From: the human T2T-CHM13v2.0 reference genome, Homo sapiens
Assembly: GCF_009914755.1 (NCBI RefSeq)
Contig: NC_060925.1
Length of the DNA: 64,000 nt
Reading direction: 5' to 3' (one strand)
A model generated the notes under the pieces. The model was not told where the DNA came from. It saw only the letters and a program-made list of their open reading frames with translations, and made no database searches. Below are positions 49,687-60,970 of this stretch, piece after piece (the first letter of the stretch is position 1; every line of letters begins with the position of its first letter). The translations under genes and the position numbers were made by a program.

Positions 49687-50006
49687 AGATGGATGGAATT
49701 GTGTCCCTCTCCGGCCCCAAATTCATAGGTGGGAGCCCTAATCTCCAACGTGATTGTATTTGGAGATAAGGCCTTTAAGAATGTAATTAAGGCTAAATGA
49801 GTGGGGGTTCTAATTTGTGTGGGGACCTAATCCAGTAGAACTGATGTCCTTAGAAAAAGGAAGAGATGAGCTGCCGGGAGATGCTCATGAACAAGTTCTT
49901 TTTCTTCAGGGGGTGAAGAAAGTCCAGGCGTTCGTTTACTCTAGAGCTATGGGTCAGAAAGGGGTTTCAGCATCAGCGTCTGCAACCTTTGTATAACAGA
50001 GGATAA

Positions 50007-50330
50007 GGCCGGGCGCGGTGGCTTATGCCTGTCATCCCAGCACTTTGGGAGGCTGAGGCGGGCGGATCATGAGGTCCGGAGGTCAGCACCATCCTGGTTA
50101 ACATGGTGAAGCCCCATCTCTACTAAAAATACAAAAAAATTAGCCAGGCATGGTGGCAGGCGCCTGTAGTCCCAGCTACTCGGGAGGCTGAGGCAGGAGA
50201 ATGGCGTGAACCCGGGAGGCAGAGCTTGCAGTGAGCCAAGATCGTGCCACTGCACTCCAGCCTGGGCGACAGAGCAAGACTCCGTCTCAAAAAACAAACA
50301 AACAAACAAGCAAACAACAACAACAACAAA
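50007..50330 (+). mobile_element. AluY-like, inserted into the duplicated segment
   Basis: TSD aacagag(g/c)a(t/c)aa; absent from the 59.8-kb copy. Confidence 0.95.
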
Positions 50331-50382
50331 AACAGAGCACAAAATCAGTGATGGAGAATTAAACTCTTTAGAAGGCTGGTTC

Positions 50383-50684
50383 AGCCTGGTGCGGTGGCTC
50401 ATGCCTGTCATCCCAGCACTTTGGGAGGTCGAGGCAGAAGGATCACTTGAGCCTAGGGGTTCAAGACTAGCCTGCGCAACATGGCAAAACCCCATCTCTA
50501 CAAAAAAAAAAAATAATTAGCTGGGCATGGTGGCTTGCGCCTGTAGACCCAGCTACTCAGGAACCTGAGGTGGTAGGATCGCTTGAACCCAGGAGGTGGA
50601 CGTTGCAGTGAGCCGAGATGGCACCGCTGCACTCCAGCCTGGGTGACAGAGAGAGACTCTGTCTCGAAAAAAAAGAAGAAAACA
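50383..50684 (+). mobile_element. AluJ-like (3' part of the duplicated unit)
   Basis: Dimer with A-tail, at the same junction as the Alu ending at 59751. Confidence 0.93.
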
Positions 50685-51159
50685 AGAAAAAGAAAGAGAC
50701 ACTAGGGGTGCTTGTGCCCTAAGTAAAGGTCATATGAGGGCACAGCGAGAAGGCGGCCATCTGCACACCAGGAAGAGAGCCCTCATCCTGATGGCACCTT
50801 GCTCTTGATCTCCAGTTCCCAGGACTGTGAGAAAATAAATTTCTGTGGTGGAGGCCACCCAGACTGTGGTCAGCCCGAGCAGAAGAATACAGTGTGGTTT
50901 TCCCCCAGTTCCTTTCTCATTTAAATCTAGTACATGCTTCCCTGAGCTCTTCCTTGCCAGGCTATAAGAATTTAGCTGTACCACAAGTTTAAACATATAG
51001 GTTATTTCATGTTTGGTTCTATGTTTTTCTCCTTACCCTGGTAACTGTATGCGAATTAACTTTTGGGAGGGTGTGGGGACTGTAGAAGGGAATGCTCTAA
51101 GGGGAGGCCAACAAATAGCTGAGTTTGTCTGTTTGGCTTGAGGGAATATGGATTGAGCA

Positions 51160-51380
51160 GATGATTATAATGGTGACACCTCTGATTAGCACCTTCCAGT
51201 TCACAAACACCCACCCAGGAGTGATCACATTGGTGCCTCCTATTAACTCTGGGAGGTACGCAGCCTAGATAATAGCATGTCTGTTTTAGAGGTGGTACAA
51301 CCGAGGCTTGGAGAGGCAGATGCCTTGGCCAGGATCATAGCTGCAAGTGCGTGTCAGAATCAGGACTCCCAGCCACATGG
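51160..51380 (-). mobile_element. MIR fragment
   Basis: tgttttagaggtggtacaaccgaggcttggagagg..gccttggccaggatcatagctgcaagtg. Confidence 0.6.
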
Positions 51381-51676
51381 TGAAGATGAGAGTGCGTCCC
51401 TGTGTGGTGCTGTGTGAAGGGGTATTTGGGGAAGTTATGGCAATGAACTGGATTATATTGTATCATTCACAGAGGTTCCAGAAGGAGAGGTGTCCACCCG
51501 GGCCACTGCCTGCAGATCTGCGTCCCCCCCGCCATGTGGGCTGAAGGCCGTCTCCTCCATGGCCTTGCACCTTGCTCGGGACTCCTGTGACCCTTTATCT
51601 GTGACCCTTTTTCAAAACAACAAATATTTTCATAGAAATAGATCATTCGTTATCTCTCTGGGTCATTTCTAAAAAG

Positions 51677-57747: not shown

Positions 57748-57859
57748 GGGCTGCTTTCAAAGATCACTGCATAAGTAGTGTGCTTATTATGATAGATTTT
57801 ATAACTTTAAGATATAATCATCTTGTTCTTTTTCGTACATTAGCAAAGGAAACCATGAA

Positions 57860-57995
57860 ACCACACGTTAGAATTGAGGGGACTTTGAAGTCAGGGAGTC
57901 TCTTTTTTACAGTTGAAGAGGCTCCAACAAACGTCAATGGTTTGCTCATGGGTACATGGCTAGTAAACACCAGAGCTGGCTCTAGGACTCGCATT
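57860..57995 (-). mobile_element. MIR fragment
   Basis: ttttacagttgaagaggctc...ggtttgctcatgggtacatggctagtaaa. Confidence 0.55.
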
Positions 57996-58142
57996 GATGT
58001 CGGTTAATTGATATACCTGACCCCGCTACTAGCGCACAATTACTGCCCTGCGTCAGGCCAAATCAGGGGCATGGATCATCATGTTGGGGACACTACCCCA
58101 AAGGAGGAGATGACATGGCTGTCCACAAACCGGGAGCCCAGT

Positions 58143-58895
58143 TGTGCCCAGAATTGGTTCCTTCTGGTTGGTTCTTGGTCTCGCTGACTTCAAAAATGAA
58201 GCCGCGGACCCTCACAGTGAGTGGTACAGTTCTAAAGATGGTGTGTCTGAAGTTTGTTCCTTCAGATGTTGAGATGTGTTCAGAGTTTCTTCCTTCTGGT
58301 AGGTTTGTGGTCTCACTGACTTCATGAGTGAAGCCACAGACCTTTGCAGTGAGTGTTACAACTCTTAAAGGTGGTGTGTGTGGAGTTCTCTGTTCCTCCT
58401 GGTGGATTCGTGGTCTTGCTGGCTTCAGGACTGAAGCTGCAGACCTTCACGGTGACTGTTAATCTCACAAAGGTAGCACAAACCCAAAGACTGAGCAGCA
58501 GTAAAATTTATTGCTAAGAACAAAAGAACAAAGCTTCCACAGTTAGAAGACGACTGGCGGAGATTACCGCTGCTGGCTCAGGTGGCCAGCTTTTATTCCC
58601 TTATTTGGTCCCACCCACATCCTGCTGATTGGTCCACTTTTCAGAGCACTGATTGGTCCATTTTACAGAGTGCTGATTGGTCCGTTTTTACTGAGTGCTG
58701 ATTGGTGCATTTACAAACCTTTAGCTAGACACAGAGCGCTGACTGGTGCGTTTTTACAGAGTGCTGATTGGTGTGTTTACAAACCTTTAGCCAGACGCAG
58801 AGCGCTGATTGGTGTGTTTACAATCCTTTAGCTAGACAGAAAAGTTATCCAAGTCCCCCCACCTGACCCAGAAGCCCAGCTGGATTCACCTCTCA
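58143..58895 (-). mobile_element. LTR12-family (ERV9) solo LTR, complete
   Basis: Reverse complement tgagaggtgaatccagctgggcttctgggtc...ccaattctgggcaca. Repeated ctgattgg (CCAAT) units; 4-bp TSD cagt/cggt. Confidence 0.92.
58620..58815 (-). promoter_or_regulatory. LTR12 U3 tandem CCAAT (NF-Y) repeats
   Basis: Six intact gattgg copies in tandem ~19-41-bp repeats. Promoter activity is inferred from the family, not shown here. Confidence 0.65.
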
Positions 58896-59426
58896 CGGTG
58901 GCCCTCCTGCTCACACAACCTGCCTACCTCTTGGGAAGACACCTCCTGTTTGGACTTGCTGGTTTTTGTGCAGTCACGCAGAAAGCCCCATTTCGCATGA
59001 CGCTAGCTGAACTAGAAGCAGAGAGACATGTACAACATTATAGATCTTTTATAGTTAAAAGGACCAGGAAATTCTGATCCCCTGTCCCTCTCAACACCCT
59101 CCCCCCGCCACCCAAAACAACCACCAGGAAAGCGTTCTGCACTTCAGTGGAAAAGGCAAATCTTGTAACACTTGGCCTTGGCCTAGGTGCTGGGTGTCCA
59201 GAGCGGATAGAGGCCCATGGCGACAGTTGTGCCAGCAGATTCCTGCTGCTAAGTCCCCGGCCTTTGCGCTCTGTGGCCTGGGCTGATGGGTGGGTGGGTG
59301 CCTTTATTTGCCTGGTTGAGGAGTGCACTCACTGGGGGCCATTTGGTTTGAAACATTTTTTGCAGCTAAGGGGTGGTAAAGATGACGCTAGTTTAGCTGA
59401 GTTTAAGGCTAATTAATCAGCCTTCT

Positions 59427-59751
59427 TTTTTCTTTTTCTTTCCTTTTTTTTTTAGACAGAGTCTCACACAATTCCCTGGGCTGGAGTGCAGTGGTGCGAT
59501 CATGGCTCACTACTGCAGCATCAACCTCCTGGACTCAAGCAATTCTCCTGCCTCAGCCTCCCGAGTAGCTGGGACTATAGGTGCCCAACACCATTGCCCC
59601 GCTATTTTTTTATTTTTTATTTTTTATTTTTTGTGGAGACAGGGCTTTGCCATGTTGCTCAGGCTGGTCTCAAACTCCTGGGCCCAAGTGATCCTCCTGC
59701 CTCAGTCTCCCAAAGTGCCAGATTTACAGGTGTAAGCCACCGCGCCCAGCC
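59427..59751 (-). mobile_element. AluJ-like (source locus of the 49.9-50.7 kb duplicate)
   Basis: Own perfect TSD aatcagccttct at 59415-59426 and 59753-59764. Confidence 0.95.
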
Positions 59752-60970
59752 AAATCAGCCTTCTAAAGAGCTTAATTTTCCATCACTGACTTTGTGTTCT
59801 TTTATACAAAGGTTGCAGACTCCGATGCTGAAACCCCTTTCTGACCGGTAGCTCTAGAGTAAACAAACGCCTGGACTTTCTTCATCCCCTGAAGACAAAG
59901 AACTTGTTCATGAGCCTCTCCAGGCAGCTCGTGGTCTGAGCTGTCAGGAATGACGGATGAGCAGCTGCTTTTGCCGGCGCCTCCGCGGCAGCTAAGGTAG
60001 CGCTCACAGGACTGTCTACACCATGGACTCAGTGTTCAGGTGTTCAGGGAGTTATTATTGGAGCAGCTCACTCTATCTTAAGGCAGACAGCCCCGGGCAA
60101 AGCGCAGCGGATAAACACAAGTGACATCTTATGAAACCTAAGTTCATGTGAAATCCTAGATAATTCTGTTGTCAGAAGTGAAAATATATATTGCATTTTT
60201 ATCTAAAAATAAAAATGAATGTGATGATCTTTTTGCTCTTTGAGATCTAGATTTCGAAAATCTTTTCTTAGATGAAGAAGGAAGCCATTTCTTTGTACTA
60301 TATCTTGGAAGAAGATTTTTTTTAAAGGAAAGCTGTAGGCTATATATACAGTCAGAAATTTGAAAAGATGCATATATATTTATTGAAAACTAGAAATGTT
60401 TTTGAAATAATAATAAGTTTAAAAAAGGAGAACAGAGTAAAAAGTGGAAAAGCAGTTAATTACATAATACAATACGTATTAGAAAAGGGGAAACCACTCC
60501 GTTTTTCTGATCCTAATCCTAGGAAAAAAATTCCTTGGAGAAATCTGCATCTTAGGCAGCTCTGGGAAGAATCCAAGGGCCCTCACTCCATCTTTAAAGA
60601 GCCCACCCTGGCTTTTCCCAGTGGAATTTGCTATGTTTGGGAAGTTTAAAAAGTGTTTAAGACAATATGGATTTTGCAATGGGATTTACACATAATTAAC
60701 TCATGAGTCGCTTCTTTTGTGTTCCACTCTATGTCTGCTTTGTGGTTCCTGAAAGTCCTTGAAGAACCGGAGCTGAAGGTACAGGGCCCACGTTTGCCTA
60801 ATCCCAGGCTGGAACAATTGGTTTCAGTCCCCGCCTCTCTTGGAATGTGGTTTGGAGGTGGAGGAAGGGGAGGAGGGGGACGCAGGAGGCCGGTGGAGCA
60901 CGGCAGAGCAAAGCAGCTTCCTTCTCCAAGGGCTGAGGAGCCACGGAGTGCTCCTCTTTTGGGTCATCTC

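What the first reader, a model, noticed from the sequence alone, without database searches (positions are those of the whole stretch)
49852..59930. Local inverted retro-duplication: ~180 bp unique flank + Alu copied from 59.4-59.9 kb into an LTR ~9 kb away (candidate Alu 5' transduction)
Seen in sequence: 49868-50382, after removing the AluY at 50007-50330, is the reverse complement of 59752-59930 (about 16 mismatches in 180 bp by eye). Both copies run into an Alu 5' end at the same junction. The 59-kb Alu has its own complete TSD (aatcagccttct twice), while the 50-kb unit carries only the upstream half, so the direction is 59 kb to 50 kb. The whole unit (flank + Alu + A-tail) splits an MLT1 LTR. 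It is bracketed by a 16-bp TSD (agaaaaaggaagagat / agaaaaagaaagagac) at a TT|AGAAAA site, with about 2 bp of junction microhomology. Established: a TSD, an A-tail and a TT/AAAA target are hallmarks of L1 target-primed reverse transcription (TPRT). Alu Pol III transcripts start at the Alu, so 5' flank capture is not expected, and retrocopies normally land far from their source. Inference: either an upstream-initiated transcript was primed at the Alu A-tail and reinserted in cis, or an incoming Alu cDNA switched template onto the nearby Alu and its flank.
Basis: partly seen in the sequence, partly recalled or inferred. Interest (0 to 1): 0.8.

Follow-up and report, generated by a model that had tools for sequence, protein, structure and literature searches.

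The report
Alu insertion carrying neighbour Alu's flank
An ancient Alu insertion carries, at its front end, a 180-base patch copied from the DNA just in front of a different Alu 9 kb away, which suggests the insertion intermediate briefly used that neighbour as a template; it is a rare but explicable by-product of retrotransposition.

Summary
49868-50382 (minus the later AluY at 50007-50330) is the reverse complement of 59752-59930: 16 mismatches in 179 aligned bases. A whole-genome search finds only these two copies. The 16-bp target-site duplication (49852-49867 / 50685-50700) is real, because uninterrupted relatives of the split LTR carry that 16-mer once. The direction is 59 kb to 50 kb.

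The title claim that the Alu was copied with the flank fails. The two Alus differ at 20% of non-CpG sites (52/258) against 6.6% in the flank (11/167; Fisher p=8e-5). They are no closer than random Alu pairs in the window. They share one rare state and differ at right-arm subfamily positions. The divergence change-point falls 4-5 bp from the Alu 5' end.

Best reading (about 0.6): an unrelated Alu inserted by L1 target-primed reverse transcription. Its full-length cDNA end paired with the neighbouring inverted Alu, or with that Alu's transcript. It was extended about 180 nt into that Alu's upstream flank, then joined to the target end through a 2-bp microhomology.

It is a target-duplication-preserving variant of known recombination between insertion intermediates and nearby repeats. 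Interest is moderate.

The parts
49690..49851 (+). Left part of the split LTR (MLT1-like; name not tested)
   Evidence: Genome search: 634 first-look candidates, 40 scored, 73-87% identity
49852..49867 (+). Left copy of the 16-bp target-site duplication, preceded by TT (TT|AGAA nick site)
   Evidence: The 16-mer is single in uninterrupted relatives L008, L019 and L006
49868..50006 (+). Templated patch, part A (reverse complement of 59930-59798). 49995-50006 is also the left target duplication of the later AluY
50007..50330 (+). Later Alu (AluY-like by recalled motifs) inserted into the patch. Its target duplication is 49995-50006 / 50331-50342
50331..50382 (+). Templated patch, part B (reverse complement of 59803-59752). 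It ends with the copy of Alu59's 5'-side target duplication (50370-50381) plus one base
50383..50684 (+). Alu50: full-length Alu, body 50383-50666 and A-rich tail 50667-50684. It is unrelated in origin to Alu59
50685..50700 (+). Right copy of the 16-bp target-site duplication
50701..50893 (+). Right part of the split LTR
   Evidence: Genome search: 1167 first-look candidates, 40 scored. It lies next to the left part in 11 of 14 relatives
59415..59426 (-). Alu59 target duplication, 3'-side copy (absent from the 50-kb unit)
59427..59751 (-). Alu59: older, inverted Alu whose homology guided the switch
59752..59932 (-). Source of the patch: unique sequence just upstream of Alu59's 5' end. It includes the 5'-side target duplication 59753-59764. 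59931-59932 is the 2-bp microhomology

Best explanation
A full-length Alu RNA from an unrelated source gene was inserted by L1 ORF2p target-primed reverse transcription. The nick was at TT|AGAAAAAGG, inside an old LTR.

When the first-strand cDNA reached the 5' end of the Alu RNA, its 3' end was not joined straight to the upstream target end. That 3' end is the complement of the Alu 5' end. It paired with the sense strand of an older Alu lying 9 kb away in inverted orientation. The template was either that Alu's DNA or a nascent transcript through it; this is unresolved.

The cDNA end was then extended about 180 nt into the unique sequence just upstream of that Alu. The extended end came off and was joined to the upstream target end through a 2-bp AC microhomology, which left the 16-bp target duplication intact. 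An AluY-like element later landed inside the patch.

Shown: the flank copy, its uniqueness in the genome, the direction, the target duplication, the nick site, the A-tail, and the unrelatedness of the two Alus with a break exactly at the Alu 5' end.

Inferred: the pairing and extension step, the nature of the template, and that all of this happened in one insertion event.
For: - The flank is a true two-copy duplicate.
- The source had its Alu at the time of copying. The patch ends exactly at Alu59's 5' junction and includes its 5'-side target duplication.
- The Alus are not co-copied:
  - Non-CpG mismatch is 52/258 in the Alu body against 11/167 in the flank, Fisher p=7.9e-5. Gap columns number 26 against 3.
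  - The maximum-likelihood change-point is at 50378/59756, 4-5 bp from the Alu start. None of 2000 permutations reached its likelihood ratio.
  - The Alu50-Alu59 non-CpG distance is 44/242 = 18.2%, against a median of 15.0% for 1275 Alu pairs in the window. The partner ranks 40th of 50 (from Alu50) and 11th of 50 (from Alu59).
  - They share only 1 rare state, and it lies in the A-rich linker.
  - Alignment columns 203, 219, 231 and 232 carry different subfamily states.
- Classical insertion hallmarks bracket patch plus Alu: a 16-bp duplication that is single in 3 intact relatives, a TT|AGAA site, and an 18-nt A-rich tail.
- The model predicts no Alu59-derived sequence inside Alu50, because synthesis on the neighbour starts at the very end of a full-length cDNA. 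It also predicts a patch sitting exactly between the target duplication and the Alu 5' end. Both are seen.
- Control: a nearby pair in which flank and Alu really were co-duplicated keeps 91% identity in one alignment across the junction (L028).
- Precedents:
  - 6 of 226 de novo Alu inserts were completed by recombination with a nearby genomic Alu (PMC3415434, section 8 read).
Against: - Alu50 may be older than the patch. It carries 16 rare-state non-CpG positions in 230 (7.0%). The flank suggests only about 3.3% per lineage (11/167 over two lineages). So Alu50 may predate the patch, or it came from an already diverged source.
- No outgroup genome could be examined, so co-insertion of Alu50 and the patch is not shown.
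- No Alu59-derived tract is detectable in Alu50, so the pairing itself leaves no direct trace.
- No minus-strand transcript is annotated over 59.4-59.9 kb (hub gene table), so an RNA template has no support.
- Subfamily labels rest on in-window comparison and recall, not on a repeat library.
Confidence: 0.6

Rival explanations
1. A transcript starting upstream of Alu59 on the minus strand (flank + Alu59) was primed at the Alu59 A-tail and retro-inserted 9 kb away as one unit. The Alu part was later overwritten along nearly its whole length by gene conversion from another Alu.
For: - The flank and the Alu junction are colinear with the source.
- The target duplication, A-tail and nick site fit any ORF2p-mediated retrocopy.
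- Gene conversion is confined to homologous sequence, so it would also produce a break at the Alu boundary.
Against: - It needs two rare events plus an unexplained landing 9 kb from the source.
- The conversion would have to span at least alignment columns 17 to 266 of 282. Alu59's rare states at both ends are absent from Alu50.
- No donor was found: the best in-window match is 82.9%. The best genomic match is 85%, among 40 scored of 5779 candidates.
- Alu50 looks no younger than the flank.
Confidence: 0.1
2. A later DNA-level event. Alu50 first inserted normally. Later a break or a stalled fork at its 5' end used the inverted Alu59 as a homeologous template (replicative template switching or break repair). 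It copied 180 bp of flank and rejoined by microhomology.
For: - Alu50's rare-state load (7.0%) exceeds the per-lineage flank divergence (about 3.3%), which hints that the patch is younger.
- Short inverted templated insertions with 2-bp microhomology are typical of replicative template switching. This is recalled; PMC4229983 passages describe microinsertions of this type.
- A complex inverted micro-duplication exists 90 kb away (L028).
Against: - The departure point would have to lie within the first ~17 nt of Alu50. The return point would have to fall within ~2 bp of the end of the target duplication, with no loss or gain of LTR or Alu sequence. These are two coincidences that a single insertion event gives for free.
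- Ordinary homology-directed repair of a break inside Alu50 would re-anneal within the Alu and trim the flank.
Confidence: 0.1
3. Chance, or a hidden repeat family: the 180 bp is an unrecognised repeat, and two Alus inserted independently at the same position in two copies.
For: None found.
Against: - There are only two copies in the genome.
- The sequence beyond 59930 is unique.
- Alu50 lacks a target duplication of its own around the flank/Alu junction. The LTR duplication brackets patch plus Alu instead.
- Only this pair among 51 Alu 5' flanks in the window shares homology up to the junction.
Confidence: 0.02

Closest known systems
Alu (and L1) retrotransposition completed by recombination with a nearby genomic copy: chimeric elements seen in cell-culture recovery assays (PMC3415434, section 8 read; the earlier L1 work it cites is recalled, not read)
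   Same: A nascent Alu cDNA uses homology with a resident Alu close to the integration site. The event is rare (6 of 226 recovered inserts).
   Different: Those events give a chimeric Alu, no target duplication, and a deletion or rearrangement. Here the target duplication is intact, nothing is lost, the Alu shows no tract from the neighbour, and the neighbour's upstream flank is copied instead (a non-crossover, copy-and-return outcome).
[quoted passage not shown] S10 not seen)
   Same: An ORF2p-made insertion carries a short patch copied from nearby genomic DNA.
   Different: Those are somatic events in an induced L1 expression model, attributed to processing of the reciprocal end. Guidance by repeat homology is not mentioned in the passages read. 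Here the event is an old germline Alu insertion whose patch starts exactly at another Alu's 5' junction.
5' transduction (L1, SVA)
   Same: Unique sequence upstream of a source element is found upstream of an offspring element, inside the offspring's target duplication.
   Different: In a transduction the offspring element is a copy of the source element. Here that was tested and not met.
Chimeric retrocopies made by RT template switching or RNA ligation (U6/L1, Alu/L1; PMC13174262, passages read)
   Same: Two sequences in the same orientation lie within one target duplication, with one A-tail and an endonuclease site.
   Different: The 5' partners there are abundant small RNAs, Alus or spliced mRNAs from anywhere in the genome. 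Here the 5' partner is unique, unannotated sequence 9 kb away, joined at a point defined by another Alu.
Templated sequence insertion polymorphisms, class 1 and class 2 (PMC5110952, abstract read)
   Same: A short stretch templated from elsewhere in the genome is inserted. Class 1 has a target duplication and an L1 nick site.
   Different: Class 1 insertions end in their own poly(A) after a cryptic signal and come from distant transcribed regions. Here the patch has no tail of its own and is fused to an Alu.

Membership tests
Classical L1 ORF2p-mediated (TPRT) Alu insertion | Target-site duplication flanking the insert | tested here: met
   14 of 16 bases are identical (49852-49867 / 50685-50700). 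The stretch is single in intact relatives L008, L019 and L006.
Classical L1 ORF2p-mediated (TPRT) Alu insertion | A-rich tail at the 3' end, next to the duplication | tested here: met
   50667-50684, AAAAAAAAGAAGAAAACA.
Classical L1 ORF2p-mediated (TPRT) Alu insertion | Nick site resembling TT|AAAA | tested here: met
   GTCCTT|AGAAAAAGG. The consensus itself is recalled and is quoted in PMC13174262.
Classical L1 ORF2p-mediated (TPRT) Alu insertion | Nothing but the element lies between the two duplication copies | tested here: not met
   About 180 bp of non-Alu sequence lies between the left duplication and the Alu 5' end.
5' transduction | The transduced flank is contiguous with the source element at the source locus | tested here: met
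   59752-59930 abuts Alu59's 5' end.
5' transduction | The offspring element is a copy of the source element | tested here: not met
   Non-CpG divergence is 20% in the Alu against 6.6% in the flank. The change-point is at the junction. The two Alus share 1 rare state and have different right-arm states.
Insertion completed by recombination with a genomic Alu (chimeric Alu) | Chimeric element: 5' part from the resident Alu, 3' part from the new one | tested here: not met
   None of Alu59's 22 rare states occurs in Alu50. The one shared rare state (alignment column 127, A-rich linker) falls outside the columns from which that list was drawn. A tract shorter than about 17 nt cannot be excluded.
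Insertion completed by recombination with a genomic Alu (chimeric Alu) | No target duplication; deletion or rearrangement of the target | tested here: not met
   The duplication is present and the LTR halves are colinear with intact relatives.
Class 1 templated sequence insertion / processed retrocopy | Own poly(A) 10-30 nt after a polyadenylation signal in the copied sequence | tested here: not met
   The only tail is that of Alu50. The patch ends at an Alu 5' end.
Small-RNA chimeric retrocopy (U6/L1 type) | The 5' partner is a known structured small RNA | tested here: not met
   Rfam gave 0 matches at gathering score in 49500-60500.
Replicative template-switch insertion (MMBIR/FoSTeS type) | A templated, often inverted, local insertion with microhomology at a junction and no retrotransposition hallmarks needed | tested here: inconclusive
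   The inverted local template and the 2-bp microhomology are present. But the patch sits exactly between a TPRT target duplication and a full-length Alu 5' end.

The most novel reading that the evidence does not exclude
Insertion intermediates of Alu (and perhaps L1) in the primate germline routinely sample nearby homologous repeats. Sometimes they copy the neighbour's upstream flank before returning to their own target. This would produce a so far uncatalogued class of 'pseudo-5'-transductions': small local duplications, often inverted, sitting between a target duplication and an Alu 5' end. Such patches would mislead source-tracing by transduction. They would also be a route for short-range shuffling of unique DNA.
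Probability: 0.25. Interest if true: 0.65.

Novelty: new variant of a known kind. Interest (0 to 1): 0.45.

Why it matters
This locus shows what a non-crossover, copy-and-return interaction between a retrotransposition intermediate and a neighbouring repeat looks like after fixation. The target duplication is intact, a full-length unrelated Alu is present, and a patch of the neighbour's upstream flank sits between them.

Cell-culture work has shown the destructive outcomes: chimeric elements, deletions and rearrangements. A conservative outcome such as this would escape assays that select for missing duplications. In genome annotation it would look like a 5' transduction or a tiny segmental duplication.

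If it recurs, three things follow:
- It gives a sequence signature for studying how homology search and repair polymerases act on TPRT intermediates in the germline.
- It warns against inferring source elements from 5' flanks alone.
- It adds a minor mechanism of local duplication.

As a single old, non-genic locus it has no evident functional consequence.

Tried and rejected
- Dispersed-repeat explanation for the flank: rejected (only the two copies; the sequence beyond is unique).
- Structured RNA in the region: Rfam at gathering score found none in 49500-60500.
- Co-copied Alu: rejected by pairwise distances, subgroup distances, shared rare states and the change-point.
- Chimeric Alu50 with a left arm from Alu59. 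Both share an uncommon left-arm state pattern. Within that subgroup, however, their 0-200 distance (32/176) is no lower than for the other members (25/171 to 37/170). The idea was dropped.
- Donor or source for Alu50: none above 85% among the 40 scored of 5779 candidates. This is weak evidence, because so few candidates were scored.
- Rare-state counts at a cut-off of 2 or fewer of 51 did not separate ages well. The cut-off was replaced by 7 or fewer.
- Mini-scan for more cases. It covered 264 kb (the window plus 200 kb downstream), with 199 Alu 5' ends. Of these, 157 had a non-Alu junction-proximal flank.
Most were flanks made of other Alus and were filtered out.
  - Two reciprocal pairs remained: the focal one, and a co-duplicated flank+Alu pair in L028.
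  - No second case of the focal type was found, and the sample is too small to give a rate.
- Literature searches. No listed paper described a target-duplication-flanked Alu with a 5' patch from a neighbouring Alu's flank. This covers only what those five listings and the passages read show. Supplements (Text S1 and Fig. S1 of PMC3415434; Fig. S10 of PMC11702581) were not seen and may hold similar cases.

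
Full report
**What is there**

The sequence at 49.85-50.70 kb reads, left to right:
- the left part of an old LTR;
- a 16-mer, AGAAAAAGGAAGAGAT (49852-49867), preceded by TT;
- about 180 bp of non-repeat sequence (49868-50382), interrupted by a complete young-looking Alu (50007-50330), whose own 12-bp duplication is 49995-50006 / 50331-50342;
- a full-length Alu (Alu50; body 50383-50666, A-rich tail 50667-50684);
- the 16-mer again, AGAAAAAGAAAGAGAC (50685-50700);
- the rest of the LTR.

At 59.4-59.9 kb an inverted Alu (Alu59, 59427-59751) is flanked by a perfect 12-bp duplication, AATCAGCCTTCT (59415-59426 and 59753-59764).

**The observation checked**

- *Flank homology.* A BLAST of 49600-51000 against the window gave 130 alignments. 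All were Alu-to-Alu or self matches apart from two that involve the 59-kb flank. The first pairs 49868-50000 with 59930-59798: 92.5% over 133 bp, 10 mismatches, no gaps, E 2e-50. The second pairs 50330-50694 with 59803-59423, running from the rest of the flank into the Alu at only 76.6% over 384 columns. A global alignment with the AluY left out gave 16 mismatches in 179 aligned flank columns and 3 gap columns.
- *Copy number.* A search of the whole 3.1-Gb assembly with 59752-59960 produced 3 candidates, all scored: the query itself and the two halves at 50 kb. The next 400 bp (59931-60330) are unique. So the flank is not a repeat family.
- *Direction.* At 59 kb the sequence continues on both sides of Alu59 and Alu59 has both copies of its duplication. 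The 50-kb copy stops at the Alu 5' end and has only the 5'-side copy (50370-50381).

**The target duplication is real**

- The two LTR halves each belong to a large dispersed family: 634 and 1167 first-look candidates, 40 scored each, 71-87% identity.
- In 11 of 14 fetched relatives both halves lie side by side.
- In L008 the end of the left half and the start of the right half map onto the same 15 bases. In the alignment, L008, L019 and L006 each carry one copy of the stretch that is doubled in the window.
- The left copy ends in AT and the right copy in AC. The source continues with AC before GAGCTG (59931-59932 read in reverse complement). So the junction has a 2-bp microhomology, and the T is what CpG decay of ...AC|G... 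would give (inference).

**The Alus are not copies of each other**

I collected 59 Alu loci in the window and aligned the 51 that are 265 bp or longer.

- *Distances.* Outside CpG columns, Alu50 and Alu59 differ at 44 of 242 positions (18.2%). The median for all 1275 pairs is 15.0%, and 76% of pairs are closer. From Alu50 the partner ranks 40th of 50; from Alu59 it ranks 11th of 50.
- *Subgroup check.* The two share an uncommon combination of left-arm states. They differ at right-arm alignment columns 203, 219, 231 and 232, where Alu50 has the window's majority states and Alu59 the minority states of the most diverged Alus. Among the six Alus with the shared left-arm type, the Alu50-Alu59 distance over columns 0-200 (32/176) is no smaller than the others (25/171 to 37/170).
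- *Shared rare states.* Only one state carried by 7 or fewer of the 51 Alus is shared, and it lies in the A-rich linker.
- *Flank against Alu.* In the direct pairwise alignment, the non-CpG mismatch rate is 11/167 in the flank and 52/258 in the Alu body (Fisher p=7.9e-5). For all sites the figures are 16/179 and 65/284 (p=8.8e-5).
- *Change-point.* The maximum-likelihood change-point lies at 50378/59756, 4-5 bp from the Alu start. None of 2000 permutations reached its likelihood ratio.
- *No close relative.* The best genomic match of Alu50 is 85%, with 40 of 5779 candidates scored. There is no sign of a close donor or sister.
- *Control.* In L028, about 90 kb downstream, a flank and its Alu were truly co-duplicated. 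One alignment runs through the junction at 91% over 226 bp.

**Mechanism**

Two facts must be reconciled.
- The patch begins exactly at another Alu's 5' junction. So that Alu was there and mattered.
- The Alu attached to the patch is not that Alu.

The simplest account is a single L1-driven insertion of an unrelated Alu. The full-length first-strand cDNA has a 3' end complementary to the Alu 5' end. That end pairs with the sense strand of the neighbouring inverted Alu and is extended into its upstream flank. It then leaves and is joined to the upstream target end by microhomology.

This predicts four things:
- no neighbour-derived tract inside the new Alu, because synthesis on the neighbour starts at the very end of the cDNA;
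- a patch lying exactly between the target duplication and the Alu 5' end;
- an intact duplication;
- a nearby template.

All four are observed. Whether the template was DNA or a nascent transcript cannot be told. No minus-strand transcript is annotated over the source (hub table).

Mirror-image versions of the model give the same product. For example, the second-strand primer could first copy the neighbour and then anneal to the cDNA.

**Rivals**

- *Co-copied unit, then conversion.* A read-through retrocopy of flank plus Alu59, followed by almost full-length gene conversion, needs two rare events, a chance landing 9 kb from the source, and an unseen donor.
- *Later repair.* A later break-repair or replicative switch between two resident Alus needs two coincidences: a departure within the first ~17 nt of Alu50, and a return within ~2 bp of the end of the duplication.
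- *Evidence favouring the later-repair rival.* Alu50's load of rare non-CpG states (16/230) is about twice the per-lineage flank divergence (11/167 over two lineages). This keeps the later-event rival alive. An already diverged source Alu would explain it as well.
- *Hidden repeat family.* Excluded.

**Dating (inference; rates recalled)**

A flank divergence of 8.9% is about 4.5-4.8% per lineage. At 1-2.2e-9 substitutions per site per year, that is about 20-45 million years. This fits an insertion of a middle-aged Alu type, with a later AluY-like insertion into the patch.

**Comparison with what is known**

- Recombination of a nascent Alu cDNA with a nearby genomic Alu is documented: 6 of 226 recovered de novo inserts, giving chimeric Alus without duplications and with deletions or rearrangements (PMC3415434, section 8 read).
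- Neither class 1 templated sequence insertions (PMC5110952, abstract read) nor RNA chimeras (PMC13174262, passages read) fits. The patch has no tail of its own, is not a known RNA, and lies 9 kb away.
- Non-classical Alu insertions lack duplications (PMC5402677, passages read).
- The locus is therefore a variant of a known kind: a conservative outcome, preserving the target duplication and capturing a flank, of the interaction between an insertion intermediate and a neighbouring repeat. It is not a 5' transduction, whose defining feature (the offspring is a copy of the source element) was tested and failed.
- Five literature searches listed no description of this exact structure. Supplements that could hold similar cases were not seen.

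**Limits**

- No repeat library and no other primate genome were available.
- The mini-scan for further cases covered only 264 kb. It could not be widened.

**Verdict**

Confidence in it is about 0.6 and interest is 0.45.

Noticed in passing
L028:1700-5060 (G000:C1:7771700-7775060): A complex local rearrangement. Three tandem antisense Alus each end in the same TGATTTTC junction (5' ends at 1771, 2094, 2406). About 2.2 kb away (4556-4780) there is an inverted copy of 41 bp of flank plus the first ~185 bp of the Alu, at 91% identity in one alignment across the junction. That copy then jumps into another Alu at about position 25. Nearby are three repeats of an Alu 3'-end fragment (4380-4510) and a long (GGGGA)n/(GAAA)n tract (4215-4345). 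It looks like serial template switching, and here the flank and the Alu were co-duplicated.
   Followed up: partly
window 50383-50684: Alu50 has a mosaic of subfamily states. Up to alignment column 193 it carries the minority (old-type) states. From column 203 on it carries the majority states. Only Alu50 and Alu59 among the 51 Alus share the exact left-arm pattern. This may be an intermediate subfamily, or a hint that the more similar neighbour was preferred as a template.
   Followed up: partly
window 49995-50006 / 50331-50342: The two duplication copies of the later AluY differ at 2 of 12 bases (AACAGAGGATAA against AACAGAGCACAA). The right copy is closer to the 59-kb source. The part of the patch between the two Alus is more diverged (6 of 51) than the part left of the AluY (10 of 133).
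   Followed up: no
window 49664-49687: A (GT)n microsatellite of about 12 units lies directly upstream of the start of the split LTR.
   Followed up: no
window 1-64000: Very high Alu density: 59 Alu loci in 64 kb, 51 of them 265 bp or longer. That gives about 18 potential homologous partners within 10 kb of any insertion here.
   Followed up: no
window 34227-52721 (hub gene table): The 50-kb insertion lies in an intron of the predicted minus-strand lncRNA LOC107984915. The 59-kb source lies about 7 kb upstream of that lncRNA's annotated start, on the same strand.
   Followed up: no
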